From positions 1,910-65,909 of the forward strand of contig CAMJAP010000001.1 of the NCBI GenBank assembly GCA_946403625.1: a DNA stretch of 64,000 nucleotides, in the 5' to 3' direction. The DNA comes from an uncultured Lachnospiraceae bacterium. GTDB taxonomy: Bacteria; Bacillota; Clostridia; Lachnospirales; Lachnospiraceae. Below the pieces are notes generated by a model. That model was not told where the DNA came from. It saw only the letters and a program-made list of their open reading frames with translations, and made no database searches. The translations under genes and the position numbers were made by a program. Shown one piece after another: positions 2,483 through 37,843 of the stretch; position 1 is the first letter of the stretch; each line of letters starts with the position of its first letter.

Positions 2483-2953
2483 ATGATTATGAAGAGAGCG
2501 AAAATGAACAACAAAGGTTTCACATTGGTTGAGTTGATCGTAGTATTGGTCATCCTCGCAATTCTGGCAGCCGTTCTGGTGCCGACTCTGTTGGGTTACA
2601 TTGACAGAGCAAAATCCGAGAAGGATTACTCTACGGCACAGTCCATCCGTGTGGCATGCCAGTCAGCGATTGCTGAAGCGTATGCAAAGAAAACATCAGG
2701 CGCTTCTGTTGGCGAGGATGATATAAGTTATGATACGGTATGGCAGTTGGTTGGTGCTACCGCCACCGGTACGAACAGCAAAAAGGCAACTCTTGATGGG
2801 GTTAATGTTGAGATTTCTTCGATCACAATAGTAGACAACCAGATTACCGCAATGAAAGTGATCATTAATTCGAACGAATATAACTTGAAGGATAATGTAT
2901 GGAGCGGTAAATCCGATAGCGCTTCTACACCTGAAACTCCTACTGAAGGATGA
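2483..2953 (+). CDS. type IV pilin / pseudopilin with prepilin-type N-terminal cleavage-methylation motif (candidate major pilin)
   Basis: Leader MIMKRAKMNNKG|FTLVELIVVLVILAILAAVLV with Glu at +5. AGGAG RBS lies 5 nt upstream. At 156 aa it is monocistronic between its own promoter and terminator. Confidence 0.85.
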   Translation: MIMKRAKMNNKGFTLVELIVVLVILAILAAVLVPTLLGYIDRAKSEKDYSTAQSIRVACQSAIAEAYAKKTSGASVGEDDISYDTVWQLVGATATGTNSKKATLDGVNVEISSITIVDNQITAMKVIINSNEYNLKDNVWSGKSDSASTPETPTEG

Positions 2954-6819: not shown

Positions 6820-7698
6820 TCATTTTTTCGGTGCTTCATATCCTGCATCTTCGTCGTTATACATATACAGTTTCAAACGGATGGTCAGCATCTTTTCGCC
6901 GGTATCTACTACTTCTACGGAACCGTCTTCATAGGTGCGCACCACCGGCGGCAGCTCATCCCATGCAAATCCGGTCACGCGGATCGACGGCTTTACCAAA
7001 AGATCGTCCAACAGTTTTTGCGCCCGAAACTCGGTACCGGTCAGAACGATCGTAACATCCGCCGCAGTGATCCCGGCCGCCGTTGTATCTTTTACCGTCA
7101 TATACTTTTCCATATAAGCATCCAACGCGGTCTTGGTGATACTCACAGCAAATGTATCGGCAGATGCCTGTGATGATGAAGATGACGAATTCGCGGTGCC
7201 CGTCCCCGTAGAAGAAAGCTGCGCAATCTCGTCCTCCACAGTACCGGATGAGGATGACGATGACGACGAGGATGAGGAGGATGAGGATTTTTTCTGCTTG
7301 TCATATTCGATTCTTTCGTCCGAATACTTATACGGTATCTCCTCCAGCGCCTCCGTCGGCATGGAGATCAGCAGATCCTTTGCACTCAGTCCGAATTCCA
7401 AAACATACATAGTAAACATTTTGTCGATTTCCGAGGAATCCATGGGTGCGTAATACTCTTCCGTAGCCGCTGCCAGATCCTCATCATACTTTTCGACCAG
7501 CAACTGCGCCGATGTCAGCCCCATAACCTTGTTATCGTTCTGCTGTTTCAGCGCCTGCGCCGAAGCAATACTATCCGTAGTCTTGTTGATGGATTTCACG
7601 ATCGGTCGTATCAATACCCACCCGAATACAAACGCGATCACGATAAATCCCAGCATATACAAGAGTTTTTTGTCCCGTGCTGTTAATGTAGCTTCCAT
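6820..7698 (-). CDS. PilO-like bitopic membrane protein with poly-Ser linker
   Basis: Single N-terminal TM (LLYMLGFIVIAFVFGWVLI) followed by a coiled-coil-like segment. It lies between the PilM/N and PilB genes. GGAGGG RBS. The assignment rests on position and topology only. Confidence 0.45.
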   Translation of the reverse strand: MEATLTARDKKLLYMLGFIVIAFVFGWVLIRPIVKSINKTTDSIASAQALKQQNDNKVMGLTSAQLLVEKYDEDLAAATEEYYAPMDSSEIDKMFTMYVLEFGLSAKDLLISMPTEALEEIPYKYSDERIEYDKQKKSSSSSSSSSSSSSSGTVEDEIAQLSSTGTGTANSSSSSSQASADTFAVSITKTALDAYMEKYMTVKDTTAAGITAADVTIVLTGTEFRAQKLLDDLLVKPSIRVTGFAWDELPPVVRTYEDGSVEVVDTGEKMLTIRLKLYMYNDEDAGYEAPKK

Positions 7699-7701
7699 AG
7701 A

Positions 7702-9159
7702 TCAGCCCTCCGCCAATGTGCATACTACATGAATCGACCATGTATTGTCCGATTCATTTTTGGTATATCCGGTATAATCTACCGTTTCAAAGATATCCAT
7801 TGCCAAAAGTCTGGCGATAAACCTATTTACCTTTTCGACATCCTCCGCGATCGCGATGATCTCAAAGACACCGCTTTCCGCAGAATAGGAATCCATTACC
7901 ACGCCGACTGCTTCCTGCTCTGCCGCCTCCTGGATTTTCTTATTCACATCCGAATTCGGGATCGGATAGGTATCACGAAACTCCTTCAACAGATCGACCG
8001 CGCCCTGTGCCTTGCCCAGTCTTCCCGCATCCTTCAGAAGCCGATCATACTCCGCTGCAGACTGCACGATCATCGGTTGTGTGTTATACTCCTGCAAAGC
8101 CGCCAGTTCCTTTTTCTTATTTCCCATTACGATCGCCAGTCCTATGGTGACACAGATCAGTATGATAATGACCACCGCATACGGAACCGCCAGCGTCAGT
8201 ATGGTTTTCTTCTTCCGATACGCATCGGACCCTCTCCACAGAGCCTCCAGAAGGGACATTCCTTCCTGCGTACCGAAAAAGCCTGCGATCGAAAACAGAT
8301 AATCCCCAAACCGGTCAGCTCCCGTATTGATCACCACACTGTCCGGACATGTCATAATCCCTACCACATCCCCCAGCGGATAGCCCTGCAATTCCGTCTT
8401 GAGCAGTGCCATATCTTCCGTATTCAGTCCGGCGATATAAATATTACTGATGGGATCCTCAATGTGCTGCGCCGTAGCGAACTGCCGGATAGAGGAGATT
8501 GCGTTTCGGATCTCCGCAGAAAACTCCGAAGTGCCCGGTATCGAATACACACGGGTATTTAAGTTATTGAAATACTGTCCCTGTGCAAACAGGATCGTGG
8601 TCAGGTTCATACCGTCCAGGATCATGTAGACCACGGTGTTACTGCCCACCTGTGTCTGCATCATATTAACGGCCAGATTGATACCTGCGTGAATGGAATT
8701 TAATTTGATCCCTGCTGCCTCAAAAATGCGGATGTAGGTTTCCACAAATTCTTTCTCCGCCATTTCCGAGATCACCAGCTGTGTCTTTTTCTTTTTACTG
8801 ACCGGATACCAGCCCATGATCGGTTCCGAAAAACGCGCGGTATCTTTTTCATCCACCTCGTTGTTTACATATTTGATCGCTTTGTTTCCGTTCAACAAAG
8901 GCATTTCGATTCGTCTTGCCATCAGATTCGGGCTGTTGATCACCAGGTCTACTGTCTTTTCCTTGATCGCATGCTTGCGCCATGCATCACGAAGGGTATC
9001 CTGCAATGCATTTTCATTGATCACGGTACCGTTTAACAGTGTGCCGTCCGGGATCTCATCCGCATAGAACGCCTTGATCTTTACTTTCTTGCCTGACCGT
9101 TCTCCCAGCACTACCTGTATGCTGCTGTTTGACAAAAAGACATTTACTTTCATCCGCAT
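7702..9159 (-). CDS. PilM-PilN-like fusion (cytoplasmic actin-like domain + TM + extracytoplasmic domain)
   Basis: About 320 aa of soluble N-terminal domain, one TM (ILTLAVPYAVVIIILICVTIGLAIVMG), then about 130 aa of C-terminal domain. It sits next to pilC and pilO-like genes, as in clostridial T4P clusters. The start could be the third codon (ATG at 9153), which has better RBS spacing. Confidence 0.6.
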   Translation of the reverse strand: MRMKVNVFLSNSSIQVVLGERSGKKVKIKAFYADEIPDGTLLNGTVINENALQDTLRDAWRKHAIKEKTVDLVINSPNLMARRIEMPLLNGNKAIKYVNNEVDEKDTARFSEPIMGWYPVSKKKKTQLVISEMAEKEFVETYIRIFEAAGIKLNSIHAGINLAVNMMQTQVGSNTVVYMILDGMNLTTILFAQGQYFNNLNTRVYSIPGTSEFSAEIRNAISSIRQFATAQHIEDPISNIYIAGLNTEDMALLKTELQGYPLGDVVGIMTCPDSVVINTGADRFGDYLFSIAGFFGTQEGMSLLEALWRGSDAYRKKKTILTLAVPYAVVIIILICVTIGLAIVMGNKKKELAALQEYNTQPMIVQSAAEYDRLLKDAGRLGKAQGAVDLLKEFRDTYPIPNSDVNKKIQEAAEQEAVGVVMDSYSAESGVFEIIAIAEDVEKVNRFIARLLAMDIFETVDYTGYTKNESDNTWSIHVVCTLAEG

Positions 9160-9197: not shown

Positions 9198-10391
9198 TTA
9201 GTTTGCTCCGATCGACGAATAGCTCTGATAGATCGGTGTAATAACACCAAGCATAACGAAACCGACGATGACTGCCATGATAATGATCGTCACCGGTTCG
9301 ATATATTTTACCAGTCGTCCCATTGCCTGTTCTGCCTTGAAATCCAGGTCATTGGCAATGGAAGTCAGCATCTTGTCCAACATACCGGTTTCCTCACCGA
9401 CACGGATAACCGACGGCAGTTTGATGATAAATCCGTCCACCTTCTCGATCGCATCCGAAAGGGATACACCGGCCTGCAGATCACGATTGACCTGATCAAA
9501 CTGTTTTTCTACATATTTGTTGCCAATGGTCTGACTGGCAATGACTACGCATCGATCCACCGGGATACCCGCAGAATACAGAGAACTCAGAGTTCTTGCA
9601 AAACGAGCGGAGTAGATCGTATTATTCAGTTTACCGATCTTTCCCTTCGTTTTGAGCGTATCAATGAACAGCTTGATACTGGGAACACGCGCCAGGATAC
9701 GGCCGAAGAAGAAACAGGCAGCGCCTCCGATAATGAGCACATACCAGTATCCGGATACAAAATCACTGATGGCGATCAGGATACGGGTAGCGATCGGCAG
9801 CGATTCCATCTGAGCGAACAGTTCCTCAAACTGCGGCATAACGAATCCGAAGATCGCCAGTACCACGCCGACGATCATCGCCATCAGGATCTTGGGATAA
9901 ACCAAAGCACTTTTGGTATTTTCTTCCAGCTGAAACTCTCTGGTGAACTGATCTGCCAGATTCAACGCGGTGATATCCATATTACCGGAAGTTTCCGCAG
10001 CACGGAACATGTAGATCATCAGAGGCGGAAATGCCGGATACAGGTTTTCCATAGTGGTAGATAAAGCGATACCCTGTACAACCTTGGTCCGCAATTCCTG
10101 AAACAAATATCTTTCGTAGGGTGTGATGGATTCGTTTCCGGCCAGGATCTCCAGCAAGCGCACCAACGGTACACCGGCCTGTGTCATGGTTCCCAGCTCT
10201 GTACAAAAATTCGCCAGCTCACTCTTTTTCAACGGCTTTAACGAAACCTTTTTCGCCGCAGAAGTGGCGCTGATCAGCATCTGCCCGTTATTTCGGAGTT
10301 TCTTCTGCAGATCCGCCTCATCCAGGGCATTCATTTTGCCGCTAAACTGTTTTCCGTCCGCATCCTGCGATTTAAATCTGTATTCCGGCAT
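9198..10391 (-). CDS. pilC: type II secretion system F family platform protein (PilC)
   Basis: 397 aa with two T2SSF repeats and three hydrophobic segments. The N-terminus is PilC-like (FSGKMNALDEADLQKKLRNNGQMLIS). Confidence 0.9.
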   Translation of the reverse strand: MPEYRFKSQDADGKQFSGKMNALDEADLQKKLRNNGQMLISATSAAKKVSLKPLKKSELANFCTELGTMTQAGVPLVRLLEILAGNESITPYERYLFQELRTKVVQGIALSTTMENLYPAFPPLMIYMFRAAETSGNMDITALNLADQFTREFQLEENTKSALVYPKILMAMIVGVVLAIFGFVMPQFEELFAQMESLPIATRILIAISDFVSGYWYVLIIGGAACFFFGRILARVPSIKLFIDTLKTKGKIGKLNNTIYSARFARTLSSLYSAGIPVDRCVVIASQTIGNKYVEKQFDQVNRDLQAGVSLSDAIEKVDGFIIKLPSVIRVGEETGMLDKMLTSIANDLDFKAEQAMGRLVKYIEPVTIIIMAVIVGFVMLGVITPIYQSYSSIGAN

Positions 10392-11005: not shown

Positions 11006-14000
11006 TCAATTTTGAATATATATGTTATGCTGATTACTATTAATTAGCGGCTCATTTCTTCCGCAATACCCATCGCAAGTATTCGCATTATTCCATTCGT
11101 GACCGGTCCGTTTCACAGATGTTATATAAGTCAATGTTCCGCTACCCTTTGCAACATATGTGCCATCCGCTTGCTGCGTCAATATACCGCAAGGTGCGCT
11201 GTGAGCATATCCCAATATATATCCGGTATAACCGGTACAACTCCAACCTAAAGGATACCACTTGCCAGCCCTCAGTTGTACCTTATCTCCTCCTGTAACA
11301 GGCACCGTATAAGTGGTAGTGCTCGTTCGTCCGAATGCCCCTAGATTCCGCCCCATTACAGTACCGACATAGCCTCTTTCTCCAAAGATCTGGAAACCAT
11401 ATCCATCCGTTCCAGCTGTAATATAGTAATCAGCCGAAACATTCATGATCGGGTTGGCAAGGAAATTACCCGAATTCGAGCCTACAATTCCGCCTGCATA
11501 ACAATTTGCTGCAGCATTGATATAAGATGCAGTAGCCACATTTACATAGGTCGTACGGTCCTCACCAAGTGTAGTGCCCGCCTTGATGTATCCGATCATA
11601 CCACCGGCATTCACCGTACCGTTAATCGTTACATTAGACAGCGTTACCGTCAGATCCGAATTAAATACCGCTGCATAGTCCTTATTATTGCTTCCCTTTT
11701 CCACTGCTCCGGCATTGCCGATGATACCACCGACTCCCGCGCTTTCTCCGGAGCCGGAACATTCGATCGTTGAGTCTTTCAAGTTCGCAATCAGATCATA
11801 ATTGATCACACCGGATGCGTGCCATCTGCCCATCGTTCCGATCACACCGCCGGCGCCGTAGCTCGATGCCGTGATATTCATTGTACCGGTCGCAGTCAGA
11901 GTACCTCCCCTTGGAGTCTCTCCCAGTTTTCCGTCCAAACTGCCGATCCAGCCGCCCACACCGGAAACACCTTTTGCGGTAACCGTGATCTTATCCATCG
12001 TAATGCTCTGTTTCAGAGTTCCGTACAAATATCCTGCTACACCACCCACATCGAAAGCATTGCCTCCATTAGGCTGCAGGATCAGTTTGTGGGTATTGCC
12101 GTCCTCCGATTTGACGGACATATCCAGGATCTCTCCGTTCTGAGATTCACAACGGCCCAATACACCACCCACGGAATTCTTACCGCTCAGGATCGCAAAA
12201 TCATTCTTCAGGCGAAGGAACATACCGTCCACCTTCACCTCACTGGTTGCATTACCTTCCCAAGACATCTGACCAACTACGCCTCCAACTCCCGGATAAT
12301 GGCTATTACCGGTGTTGATTGCACTTGCCGATACATTTGTCTGAGAATAAGCATATTCCACATAGGTCGTCAGGTTGCCTGCGCTGCCCTTACCCATGGT
12401 ACCGACTACACCGCCCAGGCCCTGACCGGAGCCGACCACATAACCGCCTGCCAGATGTACGGTAAGATTTTGTGCCGCATCTGTACCATAGCCCTGTCCG
12501 ATATCACCATTATCCACCTGACCGATCATGCCGCCGGTGTGCACGGTACCGGTGATCCGTGAGCCTGCTGCCAGTCTCAGATCCGCATTGCCATAGGCCG
12601 TTGCGCCGCCCTGAAGCAGACCGATCATACCGCCGGTGCTTTCATGTCCGCTGACGGAGCACTGTGAACCCAGCACGATCTCTTTCGTTCCGTTTACACT
12701 GCCTGCTTCGATCTTTCCGAACAAACCACCTATATTATTGCCGCTACCGGTTACGGTGCATCCCGCTACCGGCTTAAACTCGATCGCGCCGGAAATATTA
12801 CCGGAAGAACAACCGACCAAACCGCCCGCATTGTTGCCGCCGGTCAATGCAAATGCTGCTGCCGGTGCAAAGGAAATATTACCGGCTACGATACCGTGAT
12901 CCACCTCGCCGATCACACCACCGACCGAATCGCCACCTGTGATGGCACAATCCGCTACAGGTGCAAATTGAATATTGCTGTTCCAGGTTCCGCCGTTTGC
13001 CACCAAGCCGATCACACCGCCTGCATGGGATGTTGCAGCCGTTGCCGCTACCGCTCTGATTCCGGTTACTTCCAATGTGCTTTCTGCCGTACCTACAACA
13101 GCGCCGTCCATCTGACCGATATATCCGCCCAGATTCTGCTGTCCGCTAATGGTTACGGACGGTACGATCTGCATATTCTGAACCAAAACATTTGCACTTT
13201 CCAGATAACCGGCAATACCTCCGGCATCCTTGCACTCCGGAACATTCATAAACAGCTCGGTACTGTTACCGTCCACGATCGCATTCTCCAGAGTACCGCT
13301 CTGCGTCATACCTCCGACAACACCGCCGAGACAGCATAATTCTTCTACACTGCCCGGATTCCTCGTAATGATATTTCCGGTCGTATTTACGGTTGTTGCA
13401 GCATTTTTGATCACCGGATTATTATTACCTTCCACCCATCCGATGCAACCACCGACCCGGTTGTTGCCATAGATCGGGGATACGCTGCCAACACCTTCCT
13501 CTGCTCCCAGAATCGCCTTCACCGAGGTATAGACACCCGATTCGCCGATACTGCCGATGCAGCCGCCGGCCTGCTTTTCTGCCGTAATCGCAGCTTCTGC
13601 ATCCAACACAGCGGTAACATCTCCCATCGTTTGGGTCAGAGAACAATATCCGACTGCTCCGCCAACCCCGGCCTGACCGGTAACCGCACCGGTAGAACCA
13701 AGGTAAGTGGATACCTTGCCATCCATATAGGAGATGTAGAACGCTCCGACTGCTCCGCCGGCACAGTTGCTTGCGGAAACATACGGCTGGGTACCGTTCT
13801 TCGGAAGCATTGCACTGATATTCGCATAAAAGTGCGCATTCGTTTTCCCGTTTGCAGCTACCGATGTGCTTCCGTCTGCACCAGGAGGGTTACCATCCGT
13901 AATAATTCCAACGGCACCACCGGCATAATCACCGACAGACTGAATCGATGACTGCGGATGCAGGGTAATCGAAAAGTCTAATGCTTTGTAATTCAATATA

Positions 14001-17000
14001 CCGGTTACTCCAGCTACACCATTCGTATTGCAAAGATAGAATCCTCCTACAAGACCACCGATTTGTGAATACCCCTTTACATCCAAGATCATCCGGTCAT
14101 CACTTGTCTGAGTTGCCGACTTATATTCCGTAGAAGAAGTTTGCGTGTTTTTAGCATTTAATCCGGACATTCCAACACAACCGCCCGCATTTATATTCTC
14201 ACTTGTACAGTTTCCCCCCTGATCTTGTGCGCATACTACCAATCTGGGTGCATCCGCTGTTCCTTGCAATACAATTTGGGTACCTGCCGTATCGCCACCG
14301 GTTTGGCTACATCCAACTACGCCGCCTACATTTCTGCGTCCATAGATACCACAATCCACCATCACCTGTGTTCTAACAGCAGCATATTCTTTAAGTTTTC
14401 TTAAATAACCAGCACAACCACCAACATTATCTCCTGTACCACATATCCCGTCGCTGTTCATAATAGTTGCTGTGATCGTAATCAGGTTCGTTTTGGTTCC
14501 TTTTGCTTCTCCCTTAATGCAACCTACTGCGCCACCCACATTATTGCCGGTTGCCGACAAAACTGCATTTTCTTCCTGTAAAGCATAGATATGAGAACCA
14601 TTCTGTAAACCCAACAAATATCCTACAGCCCCGCCGGCTCCACTATCCTCCTGTTCCTGATTCGTCGCCAAAATTGTCCCTTTATTGACTGCTCGAATTT
14701 GAAACGACGGACAAGAACCGGAGTCATTTGCTCCCAAAGCAACACCAATTCCTGTATTTCCCTTATTATTTGTATTGCAGGCGATACTCCCTTCGTTGAT
14801 CACATCCAGCACATACGGCGCTCCATTTTTGCCGAAACTATGCATATATGCAATTCCCGCAGAAGCTGAATGCCCTTTTCCAAACGGACTTATGCCATCC
14901 TTTGTTCCAATCAGCCCCTTATTTTCAGCATAAATATACATTTGGCTGGCTGATCCGCCGTTTATATACCCTATTGCACCACCAACATACTTTCCGCTTA
15001 TGATATCACCTGTATTTCCGCTTAAGATCAGCCCCTTATTTATTGCTCTGACACTAAGCATCATATCTGCAGGATGATTATCAATTCTGCCTACAGCGCC
15101 TCCAATTCCTTCATAAGTTTCAGCACTTGAACTATACCACTTTCCAAACTGCCAGACATATGTATTTTCTGCCAGATTTACATCTACTGCATAATCTGCC
15201 TTTTCCGCGTCTGCTATTGTAACTACGCCTTCATTGCTAACATTGTATGTAAGCTGAGTTACATCTTGCGCAAAATGACCACCTTTCATATAGCCAATTG
15301 CTCCGCCCACAGTAGTTCTGCCCATAACCAGTGCCCGTACACCATCCGGATAGGAAATGACCGTGTTTTCACTCTCACCTTCTTTTCCGCTATCCAGACT
15401 CAGGCGTGCGTCCACCATGCCTTGTACCTGCCCTATCACACCGCCAACATTTTGAGCTCCTGATATGGCAAATCTACCACAGGTTTCAATCGTCCCATAT
15501 GCCTTTGCACCCGAAGTATATACGCCTACAACGCCGCCGGTGCCGTCAAACATTTTAAAAAGCTTCCAGGTACTTCCATCCCAGGCGCCCGCCAAAACGA
15601 TCGTATTACTCATCCGGATCGTATTCTGAGTCGAATCCGAGCCTTCTTCCCCAAGCGATCCATTATGCTCACCAATCAAACCGCCGATCGGTATATAGCC
15701 TCGCCCATCCTTCCCTCCAAGGTACGCATTGGTTTCTTCCAAATTGGGACGATTTTGCTTATAATCCTGATCCACACTATCACCGTAGGAAAACAGCGTA
15801 TCTACTACGCCGGAAAGTTTCTCCGTGTTTGCCGAGCCATCTACTATGTTCTCAAGCACCAGGCACAAATTTTCACATCGTATATTCCGGATTGTTCCGT
15901 TATTTGTACAAATCATTCCTACCCCATGGGCATCTGTTGACATGAAAGACTGCCTGCGCATCTGCACATTACGGATCACGGCAGTTTTATCCTCCGTATC
16001 TGCACTAACCGCATTTTCCACTGCTACCAGTGTCTGATTTACAGACACTTCCGGCAATGCCGGCCATGACACCAGTTTCAGATCTGCCGCTTTTGACACA
16101 CCTCTGCTATGTCCCACAGGAGAATACCCTGTCAACGGAGTATTTTTTTTGTTTGCAACAAAACCATATACCACCACTTCGCTGGTATAGTCATCCTGCG
16201 TATCTTTGATCTTGCGATACCAGTCCAGATCCCTCTGAATCTCATATACCACCGGCTTATTTTCCGCCGCATACGAAATTCCTTTTGTGTATCGCATATT
16301 ATAAAGATGCCGGAACGATGTGATACTTGCCAGCTGCACTTTGTCCGGGATATTATTCTTTCCGCGATCTACATAATCATTTTCATTCCCAAAGCTGCCG
16401 TATCCGAGATCTCCGAACAAAGTATTGCATACGGCATATCCGCCGATATCCCGCGTTGCACATTCTTCCGGATCACATTTCTCCGGATTCTTATAAACAT
16501 ATTTTCCATCCTCAACAAAATAAACCGGATCATCATAAGCCCGCTTCGCATTCACATTCTCCGAAGCCGGCAGATTGGATGTCAGATTGTAATCCGTCAG
16601 ATCCGGATCCGAAAATGCATCCGCAGCTGCCGTCATTGCTACACGGATGTTTTTCGGAGTATAATCATTATTTACATCATTGTATGGCATAAATAATCTG
16701 GTGATACTGTAGTTATACGTTTTGTCTACAGAACTATTATTATCCTTTACATACGCCGCATACCGAGACATCATTGCGTCCAGCGCAATCGTATAAGAAA
16801 TATATTCCTTCGGGTCAGCGTCCGCATACTCCTTGCGCACATACGAAATTGTCAGCGGGAATTTATAAAAATTGCCTTCTGTCAGCTTATTGGCTTCCAG
16901 CGAATTATAATCTATCTTCTGATCTTTTGTGTTCACATACACCATGGCTGTTGTTTCGATCGAAGCCTTGTAACGCACAAACGATTTGTTGGTATCGTCC

Positions 17001-18142
17001 GTCATACGGTCAATCGTACACAGCACATCATAATCAGTACCGGCAATATTCCGCTTCACCACGGATCCGTTTCCGAGTTTCTGCTCTCCAACTGCCTTCA
17101 ACGGAGTCATATAATCCACCGGTTTGCGTCCATCCGGTCTTCCCGAAGTAAGATAGGCCTCGCTGATCACAAGATCCATAAGCCATTTGTCATCCTGCAT
17201 TCCCGGTGTAAACTCGCCCGTTTTAGGATGGGTATCATAAAGCGATGCCGTATAGTGGATATAGGTTTCTTTCTCACCCAGCAACCCTTTTCCGGTCACA
17301 TTCGCGCCATCATACATCACGCTGAAAGACAGTTCCAGCTTTTCACCGTTGCGCATTGCCAGTTCCGCAAAATCCATTTGCTTATTGATCAGCGGGGTAT
17401 ATACCGAATCGACTGCGGCCGGATTGCCGCCGTTAAAATATCCTACCAGACTGGTGTCGGAACGATAAGCAAACTCTCTCCAGGGAACCACACCGGATGT
17501 TTCTTTTTTCGCCACCGGGTCCCACTCGGTTCTCTTTTCATCATAAAAGACAGCATAAGTATTTACGGCATAGTGAAGTCGTTCATCACCGCCGATGGTC
17601 TTTTCCACATCAAATTCGATGGTAAAGGTAGCATTCAGGATCGAGGTATCGTAAAAATATCCGCCTACCAGATCCTGGATGATCGCATTATCATTATCCG
17701 TACCGCTTCCGCCCTTTTGATAGGTCAGGGTATATCGCATATGCACGGACTCGCCGACGGAATTGTGTGTCGTGTCAAACGCATCAAATGCCGTCTGATC
17801 AAAGCAACTATCCAACACATTTCCCGCCGCATCACGATCATTATTGGGTTGGGAGCTCGTATCACAGGGATCCTGCACTCCTTCTACCAGCAGCGTATCC
17901 TTGATCCATCTCTCGATCTCTCCGCTGTTCTTCTTGCGAACCAGCGCTGTCTGCACCGCCTGATAAATGTTCTGCGCATTCTGCTCATTGCTGTCAAAAC
18001 GCGATTTATCGATATATCCGATCAGAGACATCACTGCGGCAGAGGCCAGGATCGCCAAAATAGCCAGCACGACAATAAGCTCCACCAGAGTGAAGCCCTT
18101 CCGTTTGCTAATGCAGTTGTTTCGTTTTGCCTGTTTGCTCAT
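11006..18142 (-). CDS. giant (2,378 aa) prepilin-signal protein with GLUG-like repeat array (modular pilin / putative pilus adhesin)
   Basis: MSKQAKRNNCISKRKG|FTLVELIVVLAILAILASAAV is a class III signal with Glu+5. The ATG at 18142 overlaps the upstream pilin stop (TAATG). About 35 x-G-G-[AVILCM]-x-G motifs occur between ORF residues 830 and 2234. A 4-Cys C-terminal domain follows. The ORF is uninterrupted at 7.1 kb. Confidence 0.85.
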   Translation of the reverse strand: MSKQAKRNNCISKRKGFTLVELIVVLAILAILASAAVMSLIGYIDKSRFDSNEQNAQNIYQAVQTALVRKKNSGEIERWIKDTLLVEGVQDPCDTSSQPNNDRDAAGNVLDSCFDQTAFDAFDTTHNSVGESVHMRYTLTYQKGGSGTDNDNAIIQDLVGGYFYDTSILNATFTIEFDVEKTIGGDERLHYAVNTYAVFYDEKRTEWDPVAKKETSGVVPWREFAYRSDTSLVGYFNGGNPAAVDSVYTPLINKQMDFAELAMRNGEKLELSFSVMYDGANVTGKGLLGEKETYIHYTASLYDTHPKTGEFTPGMQDDKWLMDLVISEAYLTSGRPDGRKPVDYMTPLKAVGEQKLGNGSVVKRNIAGTDYDVLCTIDRMTDDTNKSFVRYKASIETTAMVYVNTKDQKIDYNSLEANKLTEGNFYKFPLTISYVRKEYADADPKEYISYTIALDAMMSRYAAYVKDNNSSVDKTYNYSITRLFMPYNDVNNDYTPKNIRVAMTAAADAFSDPDLTDYNLTSNLPASENVNAKRAYDDPVYFVEDGKYVYKNPEKCDPEECATRDIGGYAVCNTLFGDLGYGSFGNENDYVDRGKNNIPDKVQLASITSFRHLYNMRYTKGISYAAENKPVVYEIQRDLDWYRKIKDTQDDYTSEVVVYGFVANKKNTPLTGYSPVGHSRGVSKAADLKLVSWPALPEVSVNQTLVAVENAVSADTEDKTAVIRNVQMRRQSFMSTDAHGVGMICTNNGTIRNIRCENLCLVLENIVDGSANTEKLSGVVDTLFSYGDSVDQDYKQNRPNLEETNAYLGGKDGRGYIPIGGLIGEHNGSLGEEGSDSTQNTIRMSNTIVLAGAWDGSTWKLFKMFDGTGGVVGVYTSGAKAYGTIETCGRFAISGAQNVGGVIGQVQGMVDARLSLDSGKEGESENTVISYPDGVRALVMGRTTVGGAIGYMKGGHFAQDVTQLTYNVSNEGVVTIADAEKADYAVDVNLAENTYVWQFGKWYSSSAETYEGIGGAVGRIDNHPADMMLSVRAINKGLILSGNTGDIISGKYVGGAIGYINGGSASQMYIYAENKGLIGTKDGISPFGKGHSASAGIAYMHSFGKNGAPYVLDVINEGSIACNTNNKGNTGIGVALGANDSGSCPSFQIRAVNKGTILATNQEQEDSGAGGAVGYLLGLQNGSHIYALQEENAVLSATGNNVGGAVGCIKGEAKGTKTNLITITATIMNSDGICGTGDNVGGCAGYLRKLKEYAAVRTQVMVDCGIYGRRNVGGVVGCSQTGGDTAGTQIVLQGTADAPRLVVCAQDQGGNCTSENINAGGCVGMSGLNAKNTQTSSTEYKSATQTSDDRMILDVKGYSQIGGLVGGFYLCNTNGVAGVTGILNYKALDFSITLHPQSSIQSVGDYAGGAVGIITDGNPPGADGSTSVAANGKTNAHFYANISAMLPKNGTQPYVSASNCAGGAVGAFYISYMDGKVSTYLGSTGAVTGQAGVGGAVGYCSLTQTMGDVTAVLDAEAAITAEKQAGGCIGSIGESGVYTSVKAILGAEEGVGSVSPIYGNNRVGGCIGWVEGNNNPVIKNAATTVNTTGNIITRNPGSVEELCCLGGVVGGMTQSGTLENAIVDGNSTELFMNVPECKDAGGIAGYLESANVLVQNMQIVPSVTISGQQNLGGYIGQMDGAVVGTAESTLEVTGIRAVAATAATSHAGGVIGLVANGGTWNSNIQFAPVADCAITGGDSVGGVIGEVDHGIVAGNISFAPAAAFALTGGNNAGGLVGCSSGNISGAIEFKPVAGCTVTGSGNNIGGLFGKIEAGSVNGTKEIVLGSQCSVSGHESTGGMIGLLQGGATAYGNADLRLAAGSRITGTVHTGGMIGQVDNGDIGQGYGTDAAQNLTVHLAGGYVVGSGQGLGGVVGTMGKGSAGNLTTYVEYAYSQTNVSASAINTGNSHYPGVGGVVGQMSWEGNATSEVKVDGMFLRLKNDFAILSGKNSVGGVLGRCESQNGEILDMSVKSEDGNTHKLILQPNGGNAFDVGGVAGYLYGTLKQSITMDKITVTAKGVSGVGGWIGSLDGKLGETPRGGTLTATGTMNITASSYGAGGVIGTMGRWHASGVINYDLIANLKDSTIECSGSGESAGVGGIIGNAGAVEKGSNNKDYAAVFNSDLTVTLSNVTINGTVNAGGMIGYIKAGTTLGEDRTTYVNVATASYINAAANCYAGGIVGSNSGNFLANPIMNVSADYYITAGTDGYGFQIFGERGYVGTVMGRNLGAFGRTSTTTYTVPVTGGDKVQLRAGKWYPLGWSCTGYTGYILGYAHSAPCGILTQQADGTYVAKGSGTLTYITSVKRTGHEWNNANTCDGYCGRNEPLINSNQHNIYIQN

Positions 18143-19041
18143 TATTCCGTTACTTTCTCGTTGTCCTCTGCAAAGCAAATAACTGCTCTACGACTATATA
18201 CCAGGGTATCCGCAGATTCCTCTCCGTTACTCTTTTCGTGAATTTCTATGTTTGCCACCACATAAGCCGGCCGCCGATCCGCTATGGATGTTGCGGGATT
18301 CACTACGGTTTGATAGGTCAGCGGAGAATAGGTGACCTTGACCGTATATCCGTTATACACACCAACGGAAAACGGATTGGTATAGTCATACGGCTCCTTG
18401 TAGCGAAACAGTTCTACTTCTTTTTCGTCACTGAACACTTTTTCCGAAGTGATCGCATAGTATGCACAATGCAGATAGCCCGGTCTGGTTTCGATCGGCA
18501 TTTTGTCCGGCTGCAGATTGGTTGCGCCATTCGGGAACAGACGGTACACTGCTTTGGAGGTAACGGGGCTGGGTGTGAATCCTTCTTCCAGCAGGCTGTT
18601 ATAATTATTTGCCGATACTCCGGTATTCCAATAGATGGCCTTGGCATATCCCATATTGATCCGGAACACCAACGCATTGCCGCCTTCATTCTTTTTAATA
18701 TCCGCCAGCATTACTTCATTCGCCCGGCTCAAAGATGTGATCAGGTCATTATCACCGACCGTTGCATCCAGCGGGTCCGGAATATTAACAACCCTGACAT
18801 CCCCCGCACCGGTCACATAAGCCGCCGCGCATTCCTTACGCAGGGTATCCGTCACGGTATCCGCCACCAGCTGCGCTCTGGATAGTTTCTGCATATCCAT
18901 AAAGATGCTTACCACCGGAAACATCAGTGCTGCGACCGCAGTTGCCAGGATCGCGGTCAGCGCCATGGAAACCACCAGTTCCACCAGCGTGAAACCCTTA
19001 TCTTTCATTCGGTTGTGGTTTTTCCGATGTCTCTGTATCAT
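18142..19041 (-). CDS. minor pilin / pseudopilin (299 aa) with prepilin-type motif
   Basis: MIQRHRKNHNRMKDKG|FTLVELVVSMALTAILATAV. Its ATG overlaps the upstream stop (ATGA). Confidence 0.8.
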   Translation of the reverse strand: MIQRHRKNHNRMKDKGFTLVELVVSMALTAILATAVAALMFPVVSIFMDMQKLSRAQLVADTVTDTLRKECAAAYVTGAGDVRVVNIPDPLDATVGDNDLITSLSRANEVMLADIKKNEGGNALVFRINMGYAKAIYWNTGVSANNYNSLLEEGFTPSPVTSKAVYRLFPNGATNLQPDKMPIETRPGYLHCAYYAITSEKVFSDEKEVELFRYKEPYDYTNPFSVGVYNGYTVKVTYSPLTYQTVVNPATSIADRRPAYVVANIEIHEKSNGEESADTLVYSRRAVICFAEDNEKVTE

Positions 19042-19391
19042 TCAAATACCCAGTAGATCACTTTTCCGTCGTTTGTTACTGATTCATACTTTACGGCCTT
19101 TATTTCATACTCTTCGTCCAGTCCCGAAATGTCCGCCGTTTTCGCCGGATGCCCCAAAAGCTTACTTGCCCCCGGCTCGTTTCCCCCGTATTTTACGCTC
19201 TGCAATTGCCGCATTCCCTGGTCTGCCTTCCTTCTGGTGTCGATCGCGTATTGTTGCGCTTCGCCGGCCGCCAGGATCGAATTGCTGAAAATGCCCAAAA
19301 CGATCAGCAAAATCATAAATGCGACCATCACTTCTACGATGGTTTCGCCCTTATTTTTCAGCGATTTTTTCAATATACTTACTCGGCGCAT
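19038..19391 (-). CDS. minor pilin / pseudopilin (117 aa)
   Basis: KSLKNKG|ETIVEVMVAFMILLIVLGIF has a Gly cleavage site, Glu at +5 and a hydrophobic helix. Confidence 0.7.
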   Translation of the reverse strand: MRRVSILKKSLKNKGETIVEVMVAFMILLIVLGIFSNSILAAGEAQQYAIDTRRKADQGMRQLQSVKYGGNEPGASKLLGHPAKTADISGLDEEYEIKAVKYESVTNDGKVIYWVFE

Positions 19392-19882
19392 TTCTCATAT
19401 CCCTCACTAAAACTGCCCTGATAGATCCCGGTCCAGAAATATACCGCCTTACCCACATGCGCTTCCACGGTAACGACATAACGGTCTTTTTCCGCATCCT
19501 TTTCCACATCTGCCTTCACTCTGGCATCCGGCATGCCGTCAAATCCATCCATTTCTCCAACCAGTTTTCCGCCCTTTTGCACGACCACATTATTCAGATC
19601 GATCAGTGCTTTCTTCGGTGTGGCAGCTTCTCCCTCACCACCGGTCACCGTTTGGGTTTCCCCGTTCACGATCCTCTCTTCCAGCGCATTTCCCAGGCTG
19701 GTCGCCAATTCGTAGGCCTGATCCTGATTTAACTGCTGGTTTGCGGACGCCATAATGATCCCGGATAGGATCCGCAGTGATACTGCCAGTCCGATGATCA
19801 CCACGGTTAAGGCGGCTACCAAAATCAGGCTGGAGCCCTTATTCGATTTTAAAATACCTCTTATCCTTCTGTTTCTGTGCAT
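19379..19882 (-). CDS. pseudopilin-like protein lacking Glu+5 (PilX/GspK-like position)
   Basis: ILKSNKG|SSLILVAALTVVIIGLAV. It is the first gene of the operon and has no Glu at +5. Confidence 0.55.
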   Translation of the reverse strand: MHRNRRIRGILKSNKGSSLILVAALTVVIIGLAVSLRILSGIIMASANQQLNQDQAYELATSLGNALEERIVNGETQTVTGGEGEAATPKKALIDLNNVVVQKGGKLVGEMDGFDGMPDARVKADVEKDAEKDRYVVTVEAHVGKAVYFWTGIYQGSFSEGYEKCAE

Positions 19883-19984
19883 ATTTTTCCGCCCATGCCA
19901 AAAAAAGCCTAAATTACCCTATCTAATTTATCGGCATTAGTGCCAAAAAGTTTAGGAATAATGCTAAAATATTAGTAAAAATAG

Positions 19985-20071
19985 CCCTCATCCGCCCTTC
20001 GGGGAACAGTCCTGCTAAACCCGCAAGCTCGTTAAGCAGGAACCGGTTTCCCCCCGCTTGCAGGGGGAAGG
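19985..20071. repeat. intergenic C/G-tract hairpin repeat cluster (copy set C)
   Basis: CCCTCATCCGCCCTTCGGGG (19985..20004), the CCTGCT..AGCAGG hairpin, and TTCCCCCCGCTTGCAGGGGGAAGG (20048..20071). Related blocks occur at 20829..20873 and 3077..3098. Confidence 0.6.
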
Positions 20072-20074
20072 CGC

Positions 20075-37393: not shown

Positions 37394-37843
37394 CTAAAAA
37401 ATCAACTGCGAAACATTCATATAACAGATCAGGGTTGCAAGCATGATGGGCACACTGTAGTGGATCCGTGTCAGTTCGTTTTTCTTTCTCTCTTTTTTCA
37501 TCGTCTGCCACAGGATCTTTCCCGCACCGATCACGATTGCCAGAATCATCGAATACAACAATATCGTAACGCCCATACGGATCCCCAGTATTGCTGCAAG
37601 TGCACACAGCAGTTTTCCGTCACCGCCGCGCAGCGCCCGCACCCGGAACAACAAAAAGGTCATCAAAAACATCAGCGCCGCATCCCGTATTCCCAAAAGC
37701 AGTCCCTCCGGGCCGGCCCGCCCTGATACCAAAAGCAGACCGGCCGTCAGTCCTGTGATCGTCAAAGCATTCGGTATCTTATCCGTCATCAGGTCTGCCG
37801 TAACCGATGCCGTAAGCAGACACACGATCAAAACTGCAAGCAT
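37394..37843 (-). CDS. A24-family prepilin peptidase, short CpaA/TadV type (first gene of Tad operon)
   Basis: TADLMTDKIPN and RGGDGKLL supply the two catalytic Asp contexts. It is a 149-aa polytopic protein with an AGGGAGGA RBS. Confidence 0.8.
   Translation of the reverse strand: MLAVLIVCLLTASVTADLMTDKIPNALTITGLTAGLLLVSGRAGPEGLLLGIRDAALMFLMTFLLFRVRALRGGDGKLLCALAAILGIRMGVTILLYSMILAIVIGAGKILWQTMKKERKKNELTRIHYSVPIMLATLICYMNVSQLIF

What the first reader, a model, noticed from the sequence alone, without database searches (positions are those of the whole stretch)
11006..18142. Giant 2,378-aa protein with a canonical prepilin leader: a modular type IV pilin carrying a GLUG-like beta-solenoid
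Seen in sequence:
- A single uninterrupted 7.1-kb ORF begins MSKQAKRNNCISKRKG|FTLVELIVVLAILAILASAAV. This has a basic leader, Gly-1, Phe+1, Glu+5 and a hydrophobic helix.
- Its ATG overlaps the stop of the preceding pilin gene (TAATG).
- It lies inside an operon with PilB/PilC/PilMN.
- After ~770 non-repetitive residues come ~35 copies of x-G-G-[AVILCM]-x-G (VGGVIGQ, AGGAVGY, IGGLVGG and so on).
- It ends in a ~100-aa domain with 4 Cys (WSCTGY, APCGIL, NTCDGYCG).

Established knowledge:
- Pilins are normally ~100-200 aa.
- Pilins with grafted functional modules are known but are far smaller.
- The GGLVG-type GLUG motif occurs in large surface proteins.

Inference: the pilus machinery may display, probably at the tip via the minor-pilin complex, a very large repeat adhesin or enzyme scaffold. 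I do not know of a described system of this type.
Basis: partly seen in the sequence, partly recalled or inferred. Interest (0 to 1): 0.88.

Follow-up and report, generated by a model that had tools for sequence, protein, structure and literature searches.

The report
Giant beta-helix type IV pilin
A 2,378-residue protein in a gut or rumen Clostridia type IV pilus operon is a real pilus subunit with a roughly 1,800-residue rigid beta-helix rod fused to its end; it belongs to a conserved, uncharacterised family several times larger than any pilin studied so far.

Summary
On the minus strand, window 11006-18142 is one 2,378-codon ORF. It starts with a canonical class III (prepilin) signal peptide, overlaps the stop of the upstream pilin gene (TAATG), and lies in the operon 167aa-117aa-299aa-GIANT-154aa-PilC-PilMN-PilO-PilB.

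It is not an artefact. More than 100 protein clusters of 1,800-3,750 aa carry the same GFTLVE leader. They come from independent assemblies and cultured rumen isolates, and the gene order is the same.

Anatomy:
- aa 1-545 are colinear with stand-alone 460-575-aa minor pilins that occupy the same locus position in related operons.
- aa 546-600 are a low-confidence linker.
- aa 601-2378 are predicted as a continuous all-beta solenoid of about 48 coils (about 23 nm, inferred). It carries 35 GGxxG motifs, against 3.7 expected.

The "4-Cys C-terminal domain" is the degenerate end of the solenoid, and only one Cys is conserved.

Against a syntenic relative, identity falls from 72% (N-terminus) to 20-30% (distal solenoid), while neighbouring housekeeping genes are 82-90% identical.

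Best reading: a modular minor pilin that displays a long adhesive rod at the pilus tip. This is a new, extreme variant of a known kind (S. sanguinis PilB/PilC, Thermus ComZ, cyanobacterial PilX/HpsA). Function is inferred, not shown.

The parts
18095..18142 (-). Class III (prepilin) leader peptide, aa 1-16 (MSKQAKRNNCISKRKG), ending in Gly-1. The ATG overlaps the TAA of the upstream gene (TAATG).
   Evidence: The leader and GFTLVE motif are conserved in about 113 of 120 homologues.
17882..18094 (-). Mature N-terminus (Phe+1, Glu+5) and the long alpha1 helix of the pilin fold, aa 17-87. It contains the only transmembrane or hydrophobic segment of the protein.
   Evidence: AlphaFold helices 19-73 and 76-87. 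PDB sequence hits are limited to pilin alpha1N. Hydropathy.
16508..17881 (-). Globular part of a large minor-pilin module, aa 88-545: a pilin beta-sheet plus beta-rich domains. It is colinear with stand-alone 460-575-aa minor pilins.
   Evidence: Model strands 132-201 and 257-455, pLDDT mostly above 85. Alignment A4 with short pilins that end at about aa 545. phmmer hits. No PDB relative by sequence or fold.
16343..16507 (-). Linker, aa 546-600, between the pilin module and the solenoid.
   Evidence: pLDDT is 52-61 in four of the five 10-residue blocks covering aa 551-600 and 80 in the fifth. It lies just beyond the C-terminus of the short homologues.
11009..16342 (-). Right-handed beta-solenoid, aa 601-2378. 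It starts with a conserved cap motif (ITSFRHLYNMR...RDLDWY) and carries 35 GG-hydrophobic-x-G coils at aa 819-2222. The last ~100 aa are degenerate terminal coils, not a separate Cys domain. It is the fastest-evolving part of the protein.
   Evidence: motifs. (aa 601-770 modelled). (aa 1500-2378: pLDDT 84, pTM 0.85, all-beta). (only beta-helix proteins among fold matches). (C-terminus). (identity gradient).
18142..19041 (-). 299-aa minor pilin (KG|FTLVELVVSM), translationally coupled to the giant gene.
   Evidence: N_methyl E=1e-8. Conserved at this position as 293, 300, 257 and 271 aa in L001, L083, L002 and L084.
19038..19391 (-). 117-aa minor pilin (KG|ETIVEVMVAF), the smallest of the set.
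   Evidence: N_methyl E=5e-5. A 121-aa homologue is present in L001.
19379..19882 (-). 167-aa pilin-like protein (NKG|SSLILVAALTVV) without Phe+1 or Glu+5. It is the candidate Glu5-less cap subunit of the tip complex.
   Evidence: Sequence. A 148-aa homologue (RG|ASLVLVSIL) is present in L001. No Pfam or NCBIfam hit. The cap rule is from PMC10191384.
10459..10923 (-). 154-aa conserved membrane-anchored protein of unknown role, always found beside PilC.
   Evidence: Sequence. Homologues of 162, 175, 152, 170 and 159 aa lie at the same place in L001, L002, L083, L086 and L084. No family hit.
9198..10391 (-). PilC/GspF platform protein.
   Evidence: T2SSF E=1.6e-48; GspF and PilC models.
7702..9159 (-). 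PilM-like protein (485 aa) with a C-terminal membrane segment, i.e. a PilM-N-type fusion.
   Evidence: Weak PilM_2 and TIGR01175 hits, E about 1e-5 to 1e-6, below the curated cut-offs. Conserved at this position.
6820..7698 (-). PilO/GspM-like membrane protein (292 aa) with a poly-Ser tract.
   Evidence: Weak T2SSM hit, E=1.3e-3. Sequence. Conserved at this position.
5095..6783 (-). PilB extension ATPase with an N-terminal MshEN c-di-GMP-binding motif.
   Evidence: T2SSE E=9e-124; MshEN E=4e-18. NF053729 c-di-GMP motif E=4e-17.
2483..2953 (+). 156-aa candidate major pilin. Its mature N-terminus (FTLVELIVVLVILAILA...GYID) closely matches that of the giant.
   Evidence: N_methyl E=9e-10. Sequence. 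A 157-aa pilin follows PilB in L001.
37394..37843 (-). The only prepilin peptidase (Peptidase_A24, 149 aa) found in the window. It sits beside a separate Tad-like locus and is a possible processing enzyme for the giant.
   Evidence: PF01478 E=4e-13. In related loci a 194-263-aa A24 peptidase is part of the giant-pilin locus.

Best explanation
The gene encodes a giant modular minor pilin of a Gram-positive (Clostridia, probably Lachnospiraceae) type IV pilus.

What is shown:
1. The protein has a canonical prepilin leader, Phe+1, Glu+5 and a long alpha1 helix.
2. aa 1-545 are homologous to, and colinear with, ordinary stand-alone 460-575-aa minor pilins found at the same position of the same kind of operon.
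3. About 1,780 residues of beta-solenoid are fused to its C-terminus through a ~55-aa linker.
4. The gene is co-transcribed and translationally coupled with three other pilin-like genes, and it sits upstream of PilC-PilMN-PilO-PilB. This arrangement is conserved across many genomes.

What is inferred:
1. The prepilin is inserted into the membrane by its alpha1N segment, and the roughly 2,300 C-terminal residues are translocated unfolded.
2. A prepilin peptidase cleaves after Gly16.
3. The mature pilin joins the 167-, 117- and 299-aa subunits in the priming complex that starts filament assembly. It therefore ends up at the distal end of the pilus.
4. The solenoid is a rod no wider than the pilus and about 23 nm long (about 48 coils at 0.48 nm each). 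It is carried outward through the cell wall as PilB polymerises the 156-aa major pilin beneath it.
5. The exposed, fast-evolving distal coils bind a ligand such as plant fibre or polysaccharide, host mucus, or other cells.
6. Assembly is probably stimulated by c-di-GMP through the MshEN domain of PilB.
For: Leader and pilin fold:
- Pfam and TIGRFAM hits.
- AlphaFold alpha1 helix 19-73 followed by a beta-sheet.
- The PDB hits with E<=0.06 are all pilin alpha1N.
- GFTLVE is conserved in about 113 of 120 family members.

Pilin-module homology:
- phmmer of aa 80-780 against 1.84 billion representatives finds only 93 clusters, always starting at subject residue ~80-130. They include about 25 full-length pilins of 460-575 aa.
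- Those short pilins align end-to-end with aa 1-545.
- One of them (532 aa) sits at the giant's position in an otherwise identical cassette.

Solenoid:
- 35 motifs against 3.7 expected, with a 32-40-aa unit.
- AlphaFold model: pLDDT 84, pTM 0.85, all-beta.
- All fold matches are right-handed beta-helices, including adhesins (HxuA, SepA, Fap2) and IgA1 protease.

Operon:
-.
- Same gene order in L001 and L083, and the same gene sets in L002 and L084, which also include PilD and a PilT-like ATPase.

Not an artefact:
- More than 100 clusters of 1,800-3,750 aa.
- Identical lengths in more than 10 independent assemblies.
- No long DNA repeats in the gene.
- Present in the cultured isolate Lachnospiraceae bacterium XPB1003.

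Surface-exposure signature:
- Against the syntenic relative L083, housekeeping neighbours are 82-90% identical and minor pilins 56-67%. The giant falls from 72% (aa 1-200) to 20-30% (aa 1400-2378).
- More distant members replace or extend the C-terminus with Listeria-Bacteroides (Flg_new) repeats, which recur in large surface-type proteins.

No other anchor:
- No Sec-type leader, LPXTG motif or second transmembrane segment.

Precedent:
- Modular pilins are tip-exposed adhesins (PMC8179133).
- Tip complexes prime assembly (PMC10191384).
Against: - There is no experimental evidence of processing, piliation or binding for any family member.
- The giant retains Glu5. By the usual rule the cap is the Glu5-less subunit, here the 167-aa protein, so the giant's exact place in the tip complex is unknown.
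- No prepilin peptidase or PilT lies in this operon. The only A24 peptidase in the window is a short (149 aa) one beside a Tad-like locus.
- It is unexplained how a ~250-kDa module crosses a Gram-positive wall.
- No ligand-binding or lectin domain is recognisable.
- The rod length comes from coil counting, not from measured coordinates.
- The identity gradient could reflect relaxed constraint rather than diversifying selection.
Confidence: 0.62

Rival explanations
1. Membrane-anchored wall-spanning surface protein. The prepilin N-terminus serves only as a signal-anchor. The processed or unprocessed protein stays in the membrane, or on a very short pseudopilus as in a type II secretion system. 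The ~23-nm rod itself spans the peptidoglycan and exposes its distal end, and no long pilus carries it.
For: - The rod length inferred from about 48 coils is comparable with the thickness of a Gram-positive wall (general knowledge).
- No PilT lies in this operon.
- The protein keeps Glu5, so it is not the cap.
- NCBI names several homologues 'type II secretion system protein' or 'GspH family'.
Against: - Conserved coupling with three further minor pilins, a separate major pilin gene and a full PilB/PilC/PilMN/PilO set.
- Some loci include a PilT-like ATPase.
- Short homologues at the same position are ordinary minor pilins with no rod.
- Conservation of Glu5 points to filament incorporation.
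Confidence: 0.2
2. Pilus-displayed or pilus-secreted enzyme. The beta-helix would be a polysaccharide lyase, hydrolase or protease-type catalytic scaffold acting on plant or host glycans, rather than an adhesin.
For: - Top Foldseek matches include PL6 alginate lyases, fucoidan lyase, Lam55A glucanase, polygalacturonase and IgA1 protease.
- The habitat is rumen or herbivore gut.
- GH36 and GH2 genes lie nearby.
- Modular pilins with predicted peptidase modules are on record (PMC8179133).
Against: - No fold match is significant (best E=0.2, TM 0.1-0.2).
- No catalytic family is detected by Pfam, NCBIfam or PDB sequence search.
- The solenoid is far longer and more regular than enzymatic beta-helices, and its sequence is very poorly conserved (20-30%).
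- The glycoside hydrolase neighbours are separated from the operon by nadD and are not conserved in L001 or L002.
Confidence: 0.08
3. Artefact or pseudogene: a mis-assembled or fused ORF, or a repeat expansion created by the assembler, that is not expressed as one protein.
For: This exact protein is known from a single contig (row P0001). Repeat-rich genes are prone to assembly error.
Against: - 2,378 codons run without a stop.
- There are no long or high-identity DNA repeats.
- Colinear homologues of 1,800-3,750 aa occur in more than 100 clusters, many recovered at identical length from more than 10 independent assemblies and from isolate genomes.
- The gene context is conserved.
Confidence: 0.02

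Closest known systems
Modular minor pilins PilB (vWA module) and PilC (lectin module) of Streptococcus sanguinis type IV pili (Raynaud et al. 2021, PMC8179133; PMC9934059)
   Same: Both are from Gram-positive type IV pili. Each has a canonical class III signal peptide and a pilin module with a non-pilin module grafted onto its C-terminus through a linker. Each is encoded with other minor pilins that form the tip or priming complex.
   Different: The S. sanguinis modules are single globular domains with recognisable folds, and the proteins are a few hundred residues long. The most extreme case in that paper's survey was 860 aa. Here the graft is ~1,780 aa of beta-solenoid on an already large 545-aa pilin module. 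It has no InterPro or Pfam signature, so such surveys would not have detected it. There is no experimental evidence for the giant.
ComZ of Thermus thermophilus (competence pilus tip pilin with a beta-solenoid; Salleh et al. 2019, PMC6561018)
   Same: A pilin fold combined with a beta-solenoid, proposed to sit at the pilus tip.
   Different: In ComZ the solenoid is described as inserted into the pilin beta-sheet, as relayed in PMC8179133 and the cyanobacterial preprint. It is small, it comes from a diderm, and it is proposed to bind DNA. Here the solenoid is appended after the end of the pilin module and is several-fold longer. No sequence similarity was detected in the PDB searches.
Cyanobacterial PilX minor pilins and HpsA-like proteins, the 'PilX-EPS' subfamily (bioRxiv 10.64898/2026.02.12.705559)
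   Same: Minor pilins carry bulky beta-solenoids. Some members exceed 1,280 aa with 'particularly extensive solenoids', and they are proposed as tip plugs or adhesins replacing PilY1. This is the nearest precedent for very large solenoid pilins.
   Different: The solenoid is inserted between the last beta-strands of the pilin fold. The organisms are diderm cyanobacteria and the genes are linked to polysaccharide secretion loci. The giant gives no hit to the NCBIfam HpsA model; only a weak N-terminal hit to the HpsC pseudopilin is seen. The phylum, repeat type and locus organisation all differ.
PilY1/PilC tip adhesins of diderm T4aP, and GspK of type II secretion systems
   Same: A large protein at the pilus tip, associated with a four-subunit minor-pilin priming complex. 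The giant follows three minor-pilin genes, much as GspK or PilX-PilY1 do in their operons.
   Different: PilY1 is not a pilin and is defined by a C-terminal beta-propeller. GspK lacks Glu5 and carries an alpha-domain insertion. The giant has a pilin leader with Glu5 and neither a propeller nor an alpha-domain.
GLUG-motif beta-helix regions of large Firmicutes surface proteins, e.g. the IgA1 protease/M26 family (Pfam PF07581)
   Same: A repeated GG-hydrophobic-x-G turn motif with a period of about 30-40 aa. IgA1 protease beta-helices appear among the weak local fold matches (6xja and 7jgj: probability 0.28, rmsd 7.7-9.2 A over ~330 columns).
   Different: Pfam GLUG is not matched by the query, even when fragments are scanned at E<=10. 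It is also not listed among the precomputed Pfam domains of any of the 120 homologues. No peptidase domain is present.

Membership tests
Type IV pilin / class III signal peptide proteins (Pfam PF07963, TIGR02532) | Short, basic leader ending in Gly, followed by Phe+1 (or another hydrophobic residue) and Glu+5 | tested here: met
   The sequence is ...KRKG|FTLVE. PF07963 scores 34.2 bits (cut-off 21.2) and TIGR02532 scores 32.1 bits (cut-off 16.3). The motif is conserved in about 113 of 120 homologues.
Type IV pilin / class III signal peptide proteins (Pfam PF07963, TIGR02532) | Long N-terminal alpha1 helix with a hydrophobic first half, packed against an antiparallel beta-sheet | tested here: met
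   AlphaFold gives a helix at 19-73 followed by strands 132-141, 172-183 and 189-201, at pLDDT 80-95. This is a prediction, not a solved structure.
Type IV pilin / class III signal peptide proteins (Pfam PF07963, TIGR02532) | Cleavage and N-methylation by a prepilin peptidase, then incorporation into a filament | not testable with these tools
   An A24 peptidase gene lies in the window at 37394-37843 and within related loci. Processing itself needs an experiment.
Type IV pilin / class III signal peptide proteins (Pfam PF07963, TIGR02532) | Genetic linkage to the assembly machinery (extension ATPase, platform protein, PilMNO-type proteins) | tested here: met
   The gene is in the same-strand operon as PilC, PilMN, PilO-like and PilB. 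The linkage is conserved in L001, L002, L083, L084 and L086.
Modular pilins (sensu Raynaud et al. 2021) | An N-terminal pilin module fused through a linker to a module that is not part of the pilin fold | tested here: met
   Stand-alone homologues end at about aa 545. A low-pLDDT linker covers aa 546-600, and the solenoid runs from about aa 601 to the C-terminus.
Modular pilins (sensu Raynaud et al. 2021) | The extra module corresponds to a defined functional domain that is not specific to pilus biology | tested here: inconclusive
   The fold class (right-handed beta-helix) is common outside pili. No defined domain family matches it.
GLUG motif family (Pfam PF07581) | Match to the GLUG profile at or above Pfam's gathering threshold | tested here: not met
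   There is no GLUG hit for the whole protein at E<=0.01 or for four fragments at E<=10. PF07581 is absent from the precomputed Pfam domains of 120 homologues.
Tip-cap minor pilin (GspK / PilK / ComGG type) | Lacks the conserved Glu5, as stated for the capping subunit in PMC10191384 | tested here: not met
   The giant has Glu at +5. The 167-aa protein encoded at 19379-19882 lacks it.
HpsA-like / PilX-EPS solenoid pilins of cyanobacteria | Sequence match to the HpsA family model, with the solenoid inserted within the pilin fold | tested here: not met
   No NCBIfam HpsA hit at E<=0.01; there is only a weak N-terminal HpsC hit (E=8.5e-4, 19 bits against a cut-off of 200). The solenoid is C-terminal to the whole pilin module.
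Sortase-anchored (LPXTG) or S-layer/cell-wall-binding surface adhesins | Sec signal peptide plus a C-terminal LPXTG-TM-basic tail, or a wall-binding domain | tested here: not met
   The only hydrophobic segment is aa 13-46. The single [LIVS]PxTG-like string (VPVTG, aa 2280) has no following transmembrane segment. No wall-binding Pfam domain is detected.

The most novel reading that the evidence does not exclude
Rumen and gut Clostridia have turned one subtype of type IV pilus machine into a dedicated display system for megadalton-scale rods. A ~545-aa tip pilin has repeatedly acquired 1,300-3,200-aa beta-helix and repeat modules, giving proteins of 1,800-3,750 aa, the largest pilins known by three- to four-fold. 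These fold outside the membrane into a rod co-axial with, and no wider than, the pilus. The rod is pushed through the thick Gram-positive wall as a rapidly diversifying 20-40-nm 'probe' for attachment to plant fibre, mucus or partner cells. This would be a monoderm functional equivalent of PilY1 or of autotransporter/TpsA beta-helix adhesins, but delivered by a pilus.
Probability: 0.45. Interest if true: 0.72.

Novelty: new variant of a known kind. Interest (0 to 1): 0.6.

Why it matters
1. If the protein really is built into pili, it raises the size limit for a pilus subunit from under 1,000 to 2,400-3,750 residues. That poses a concrete biophysical problem: how a 250-400-kDa module is exported, folded and threaded through a Gram-positive wall by a type IV filament machine.

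2. It would give abundant but poorly studied rumen and gut Lachnospiraceae, Saccharofermentans and related Clostridiales a candidate long-reach adhesin. The fast-evolving tip of that adhesin may determine substrate or host specificity.

3. The family is invisible to domain-based surveys of modular pilins, because neither the 545-aa pilin module nor the solenoid has a Pfam or InterPro signature. The diversity of modular pilins is therefore underestimated, as Raynaud et al. suspected.

4. Carriers include cultured Hungate-collection isolates, so the hypothesis can be tested directly.

Tried and rejected
1. Plus-strand reading of the given coordinates. It is full of stops; the gene is on the minus strand.

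2. Pfam GLUG membership. There is no hit, even at E<=10 on fragments.

3. PDB sequence search with the whole protein and with a profile of the pilin module. The matches with E<=0.06 are all pilin alpha1N.

4. Foldseek of the aa 1-830 model against the PDB. Nothing reaches E<=0.001 (best 0.076, implausible targets). A multi-domain query lowers sensitivity, and I could not submit single domains.

5. Foldseek of the C-terminal model. It gives the fold class only, with no significant match. An enzymatic reading is not supported.

6. The idea of a distinct C-terminal Cys-rich domain. It is rejected by the alignment with 15 close homologues.

7. Assembly artefact through repeat collapse. It is rejected because the DNA has no long repeats and homologues are reproducible.

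8. The genome-contig scan was partly wasted. One of the two patterns used (GFTLVE[LM]IV) is generic to pilins, so most of the 79 loci are ordinary pilins. Only L004, L005, L006, L007, L019, L034 and L082 are true relatives.

9. Alignment A2 (fragment against full-length homologues) misplaced the first ~100 residues. I replaced it with A3, built from fragments.

10. Literature searches for 'giant/large pilin', pilin plus GLUG, and Lachnospiraceae type IV pili adhesins found no description of this family.

11. I could not obtain model coordinates, so the rod length is estimated from the coil count only.


Full report

Yes. It runs from ATG at 18142 to TAA at 11008-11006 and encodes 2,378 aa. The plus-strand translation of the same coordinates is full of stops.

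The product starts MSKQAKRNNCISKRKG|FTLVELIVVLAILAILASAAV. It matches Pfam N_methyl (E=1.6e-8, 34.2 bits against a 21.2 cut-off) and TIGR02532. The ATG shares a base with the stop of the upstream 299-aa gene (…GGAATAATGAGC…).

All 35 x-GG-[hydrophobic]-x-G motifs lie between aa 819 and 2222, spaced 30-49 aa apart (median 38). Shuffles of the same region give 3.7 ± 1.8, with a maximum of 10 in 2,000. The only hydrophobic segment is aa 13-46, and there is no sortase signal.

**2. Is it an artefact?**

No.
- At the DNA level the gene has no long or high-identity repeats, only 20-29-nt families at 66-85% identity. Repeat collapse or expansion by the assembler is therefore unlikely.
- A search of 5.8 billion proteins returned more than 100 clusters of 1,800-3,750 aa, almost all carrying PF07963. 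They come from Lachnospiraceae, Saccharofermentans and Clostridiales genomes and metagenomes.
- Individual homologues are recovered at identical length from many independent assemblies: 1,933 aa seven times, and 2,057-2,059 aa in at least twelve cluster members.
- Relatives occur in the cultured isolate Lachnospiraceae bacterium XPB1003, in an NCBI genome assembly (GCA_900099715.1), and in rumen and herbivore-gut MAGs.
- Databases give them only generic names: 'prepilin-type N-terminal cleavage/methylation domain-containing protein', 'type II secretion system protein', 'InlB B-repeat-containing protein'.

**3. Context**

On the minus strand the operon reads, in order:

| Position | Product |
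|---|---|
| 19379-19882 | 167 aa, NKG\|SSLILV; pilin-like, but no Phe+1 or Glu+5 |
| 19038-19391 | 117 aa, KG\|ETIVEV; N_methyl |
| 18142-19041 | 299 aa, KG\|FTLVEL; N_methyl |
| 11006-18142 | GIANT |
| 10459-10923 | 154 aa membrane protein |
| 9198-10391 | PilC |
| 7702-9159 | PilM-N-like, 485 aa |
| 6820-7698 | PilO/GspM-like, 292 aa |
| 5095-6783 | PilB with an MshEN c-di-GMP-binding motif |

A 156-aa candidate major pilin, whose mature N-terminus closely matches the giant's, lies at 2483-2953 on the plus strand.

The same order is found around a 1,933-aa homologue on a 631-kb contig (L001). It is also found around the 2,411-aa homologue in L083, whose flanks are syntenic with the window. 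More distant members of 2,697 and 3,573 aa keep the same gene sets, split into two divergent units. Those loci add a prepilin peptidase and, in one case, a PilT-like ATPase.

In the window, the only A24 peptidase is a 149-aa gene at 37394-37843, beside a separate Tad-like locus.

**4. Anatomy**

*(a) Pilin module, aa 1-545.*
- AlphaFold with a 42-sequence alignment (mean pLDDT 79, pTM 0.66) gives a helix at 19-73 (continuing to 87), a pilin-type sheet at 132-201, and beta-rich domains to about aa 455-507.
- An exhaustive phmmer search of aa 80-780 against 1.84 billion representatives finds only 93 clusters. The match always begins at subject residue ~80-130. The hits include about 25 complete pilins of 460-575 aa.
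- Seven of these short pilins align colinearly with aa 1-545 and end there.
- One of them (532 aa) occupies exactly the giant's position in an otherwise identical cassette: X-170aa-PilC-PilMN-PilO-PilB-PilD-pilin.
- The giant is therefore an ordinary, if large, minor pilin of this pilus subtype with something added to its C-terminus.
- Beyond alpha1N, the module has no detectable relative in the PDB by sequence or by fold (with the caveat that the query was multi-domain).

*(b) Linker, aa 546-600.* This stretch has low confidence.

*(c) Solenoid, aa ~601-2378.*
- It begins with a conserved cap motif (ITSFRHLYNMR…RDLDWY…NVQMRR.SF). R611, H612, N615, R617, L639 and W641 of that motif are invariant in 42 sequences.
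- The unit is about 32-40 aa, for example AITGGDSVGGVIGEVDHGIVAGNISFAPAAAF.
- The model of aa 1500-2378 is confident (pLDDT 84, pTM 0.85) and consists of short strands throughout.
- Every Foldseek match is a right-handed parallel beta-helix: PL6 lyases, HxuA, IgA1 protease, SepA/EspP, Fap2 and tailspikes. None is significant; the best is E=0.2.
- With about 20 motifs plus about 4 degenerate coils in 879 aa, the whole region should hold about 48 coils. At the standard 0.48 nm per coil that gives a rod of about 23 nm. This is an inference; I had no coordinates.

*(d) The 'C-terminal 4-Cys domain'.* It is the degenerate end of the solenoid. It aligns with 15 homologues through GxxLGxN…CG…GTLxY…GYVGxN, and only one Cys is conserved. 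Unlike most close homologues, this protein lacks an acidic or Pro/Thr-rich tail.

**5. Evolutionary pattern**

The comparison is with the syntenic relative L083.

| Genes compared | Identity |
|---|---|
| HD, GH2, GH36, NadD neighbours | 82-90% |
| Three small pilins and the 154-aa protein | 56-67% |
| Giant, aa 1-200 | 72% |
| Giant, aa 601-800 | 56% |
| Giant, aa 1400-2378 | 20-30% |

The distal part of the rod is by far the fastest-evolving sequence in the neighbourhood. That fits an exposed, ligand- or immune-facing surface, although relaxed constraint is not excluded.

In more distant members the C-terminal half also carries Listeria-Bacteroides (Flg_new) repeats and other repeat arrays. 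So the pilin module is the constant part and the distal modules vary.

**6. Mechanism**

*Shown:* a prepilin-type N-terminus with Glu5; a pilin fold (predicted); homology of the first 545 aa to stand-alone minor pilins; a C-terminal graft of a beta-solenoid; conserved operonic linkage with three pilin-like genes and a complete assembly machinery.

*Inferred:*
- Insertion into the membrane by alpha1N, and cleavage after Gly16 by an A24 peptidase.
- Assembly with the 167-, 117- and 299-aa subunits into the complex that primes filament growth. Type 4 filaments grow from tip to base, and the tip complex is capped by the Glu5-less subunit (PMC10191384). The complex, and with it the solenoid, would therefore end up at the distal end.
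- The Glu5-less protein here is the 167-aa one, so the giant is probably a sub-apical member of the complex whose rod projects beyond it.
- A rod no thicker than a pilus could lead the filament through the wall.
- PilB's MshEN motif, together with the GGDEF-EAL and HD-GYP genes in the window, suggests control by c-di-GMP.
- An adhesive role is the default for modular pilins (PMC8179133) and for long beta-helix surface proteins. However, no ligand-binding domain is recognisable.

**7. Rivals**

- *Membrane-anchored, wall-spanning protein or short pseudopilus (about 0.2).* Favoured by the lack of PilT here and by the rod length. Disfavoured by the complete pilus gene set and by the existence of rod-less homologues.
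- *Enzyme (about 0.08).* Supported only by non-significant fold matches.
- *Artefact (about 0.02).*

**8. Comparison with what is known**

It works like the modular pilins PilB and PilC of S. sanguinis, and like the solenoid-bearing tip pilins ComZ (Thermus) and PilX/HpsA (cyanobacteria). In the cyanobacterial group, proteins above 1,280 aa with 'particularly extensive solenoids' have just been proposed as tip plugs or adhesins.

It differs in four ways:
- Phylum and envelope: a monoderm.
- Topology: the solenoid is appended after the pilin module, not inserted into it.
- Repeat type: GLUG-like by eye, but not a Pfam GLUG member.
- Scale: 2,378 aa here and up to about 3,750 aa in the family, against 860 aa for the most extreme case in the 2021 InterPro survey.

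No paper in the searchable library describes this family.

**9. Verdict**

The finding is real, and its core interpretation (a modular type IV pilin carrying a huge beta-solenoid) is right.

It is a new and extreme variant of a known kind. Its function is untested, it matters ecologically, and cultured carriers exist for experiments. Interest 0.6.

Noticed in passing
window 27885-37843 (minus strand): A second, separate type IV filament locus of Tad/Flp type. It comprises DUF6382+FHA (27885-29270), DUF5702 (31051-32622), a T2SSF-like protein with an atrophied Ig domain (32890-34395), a TadA/CpaF-like T2SSE ATPase (35146-36363), an unannotated 339-aa gene (36360-37379) and a short 149-aa A24 prepilin peptidase (37394-37843). 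That peptidase is the only one in the window, so it may also process the giant pilin.
   Followed up: partly
window 47767-48306 (-): A further 179-aa N_methyl pilin gene lies far from both pilus loci, next to a HAD hydrolase gene. It is not clear which machine it belongs to.
   Followed up: no
window 5095-6783; 25989-27131; 40285-43092; 53533-54606; 61931-63859: The window is dense in c-di-GMP signalling genes. PilB carries an MshEN c-di-GMP-binding motif. There are also three HD/HD-GYP proteins (one fused to a response-regulator receiver) and a GGDEF-EAL protein. This suggests second-messenger control of piliation.
   Followed up: no
window 10459-10923 (-); L001 15812-16300; L002 9273-9800; L086 9678-10190: A conserved 150-175-aa protein with one N-terminal membrane segment and no family match always sits immediately beside PilC. 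When the locus is split (L002, L084) it stays with the machinery genes rather than with the giant pilin. It may be an uncharacterised machinery component of this pilus subtype.
   Followed up: partly
window 6820-7698 (-): The PilO/GspM-like protein contains a run of 13 serines and a second Ser-rich stretch between its membrane segment and its C-terminal domain. This is an unusual low-complexity linker for an alignment-complex protein.
   Followed up: no
L086 16191-17599: In the locus that carries the short 532-aa homologue, the pilin genes downstream of PilD are followed by a gene of more than 933 aa with DUF285 (BspA-like repeat). It runs off the end of the locus. It may be another large protein associated with this pilus type.
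   Followed up: no
Homologues P0003-P0017 (C-termini); window 11009-11100: Most close homologues end in long acidic (D/E/N-rich) or Pro/Thr-rich low-complexity tails after the last solenoid coil. The window's protein stops right after the solenoid and has no tail.
   Followed up: partly
L083 7530-8164 versus window 19883-20166: The syntenic relative has a 77-aa gene plus a PIN-domain gene (a toxin-antitoxin-like pair) inserted between nadD and the first pilin gene. This pair is absent from the window.
   Followed up: no
window 51495-53501 (-): A 668-aa FapA-like protein (FapA_N plus the FapA beta-solenoid domain) lies next to a response-regulator-HD-GYP gene. It has no obvious connection to the pilus loci.
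   Followed up: no
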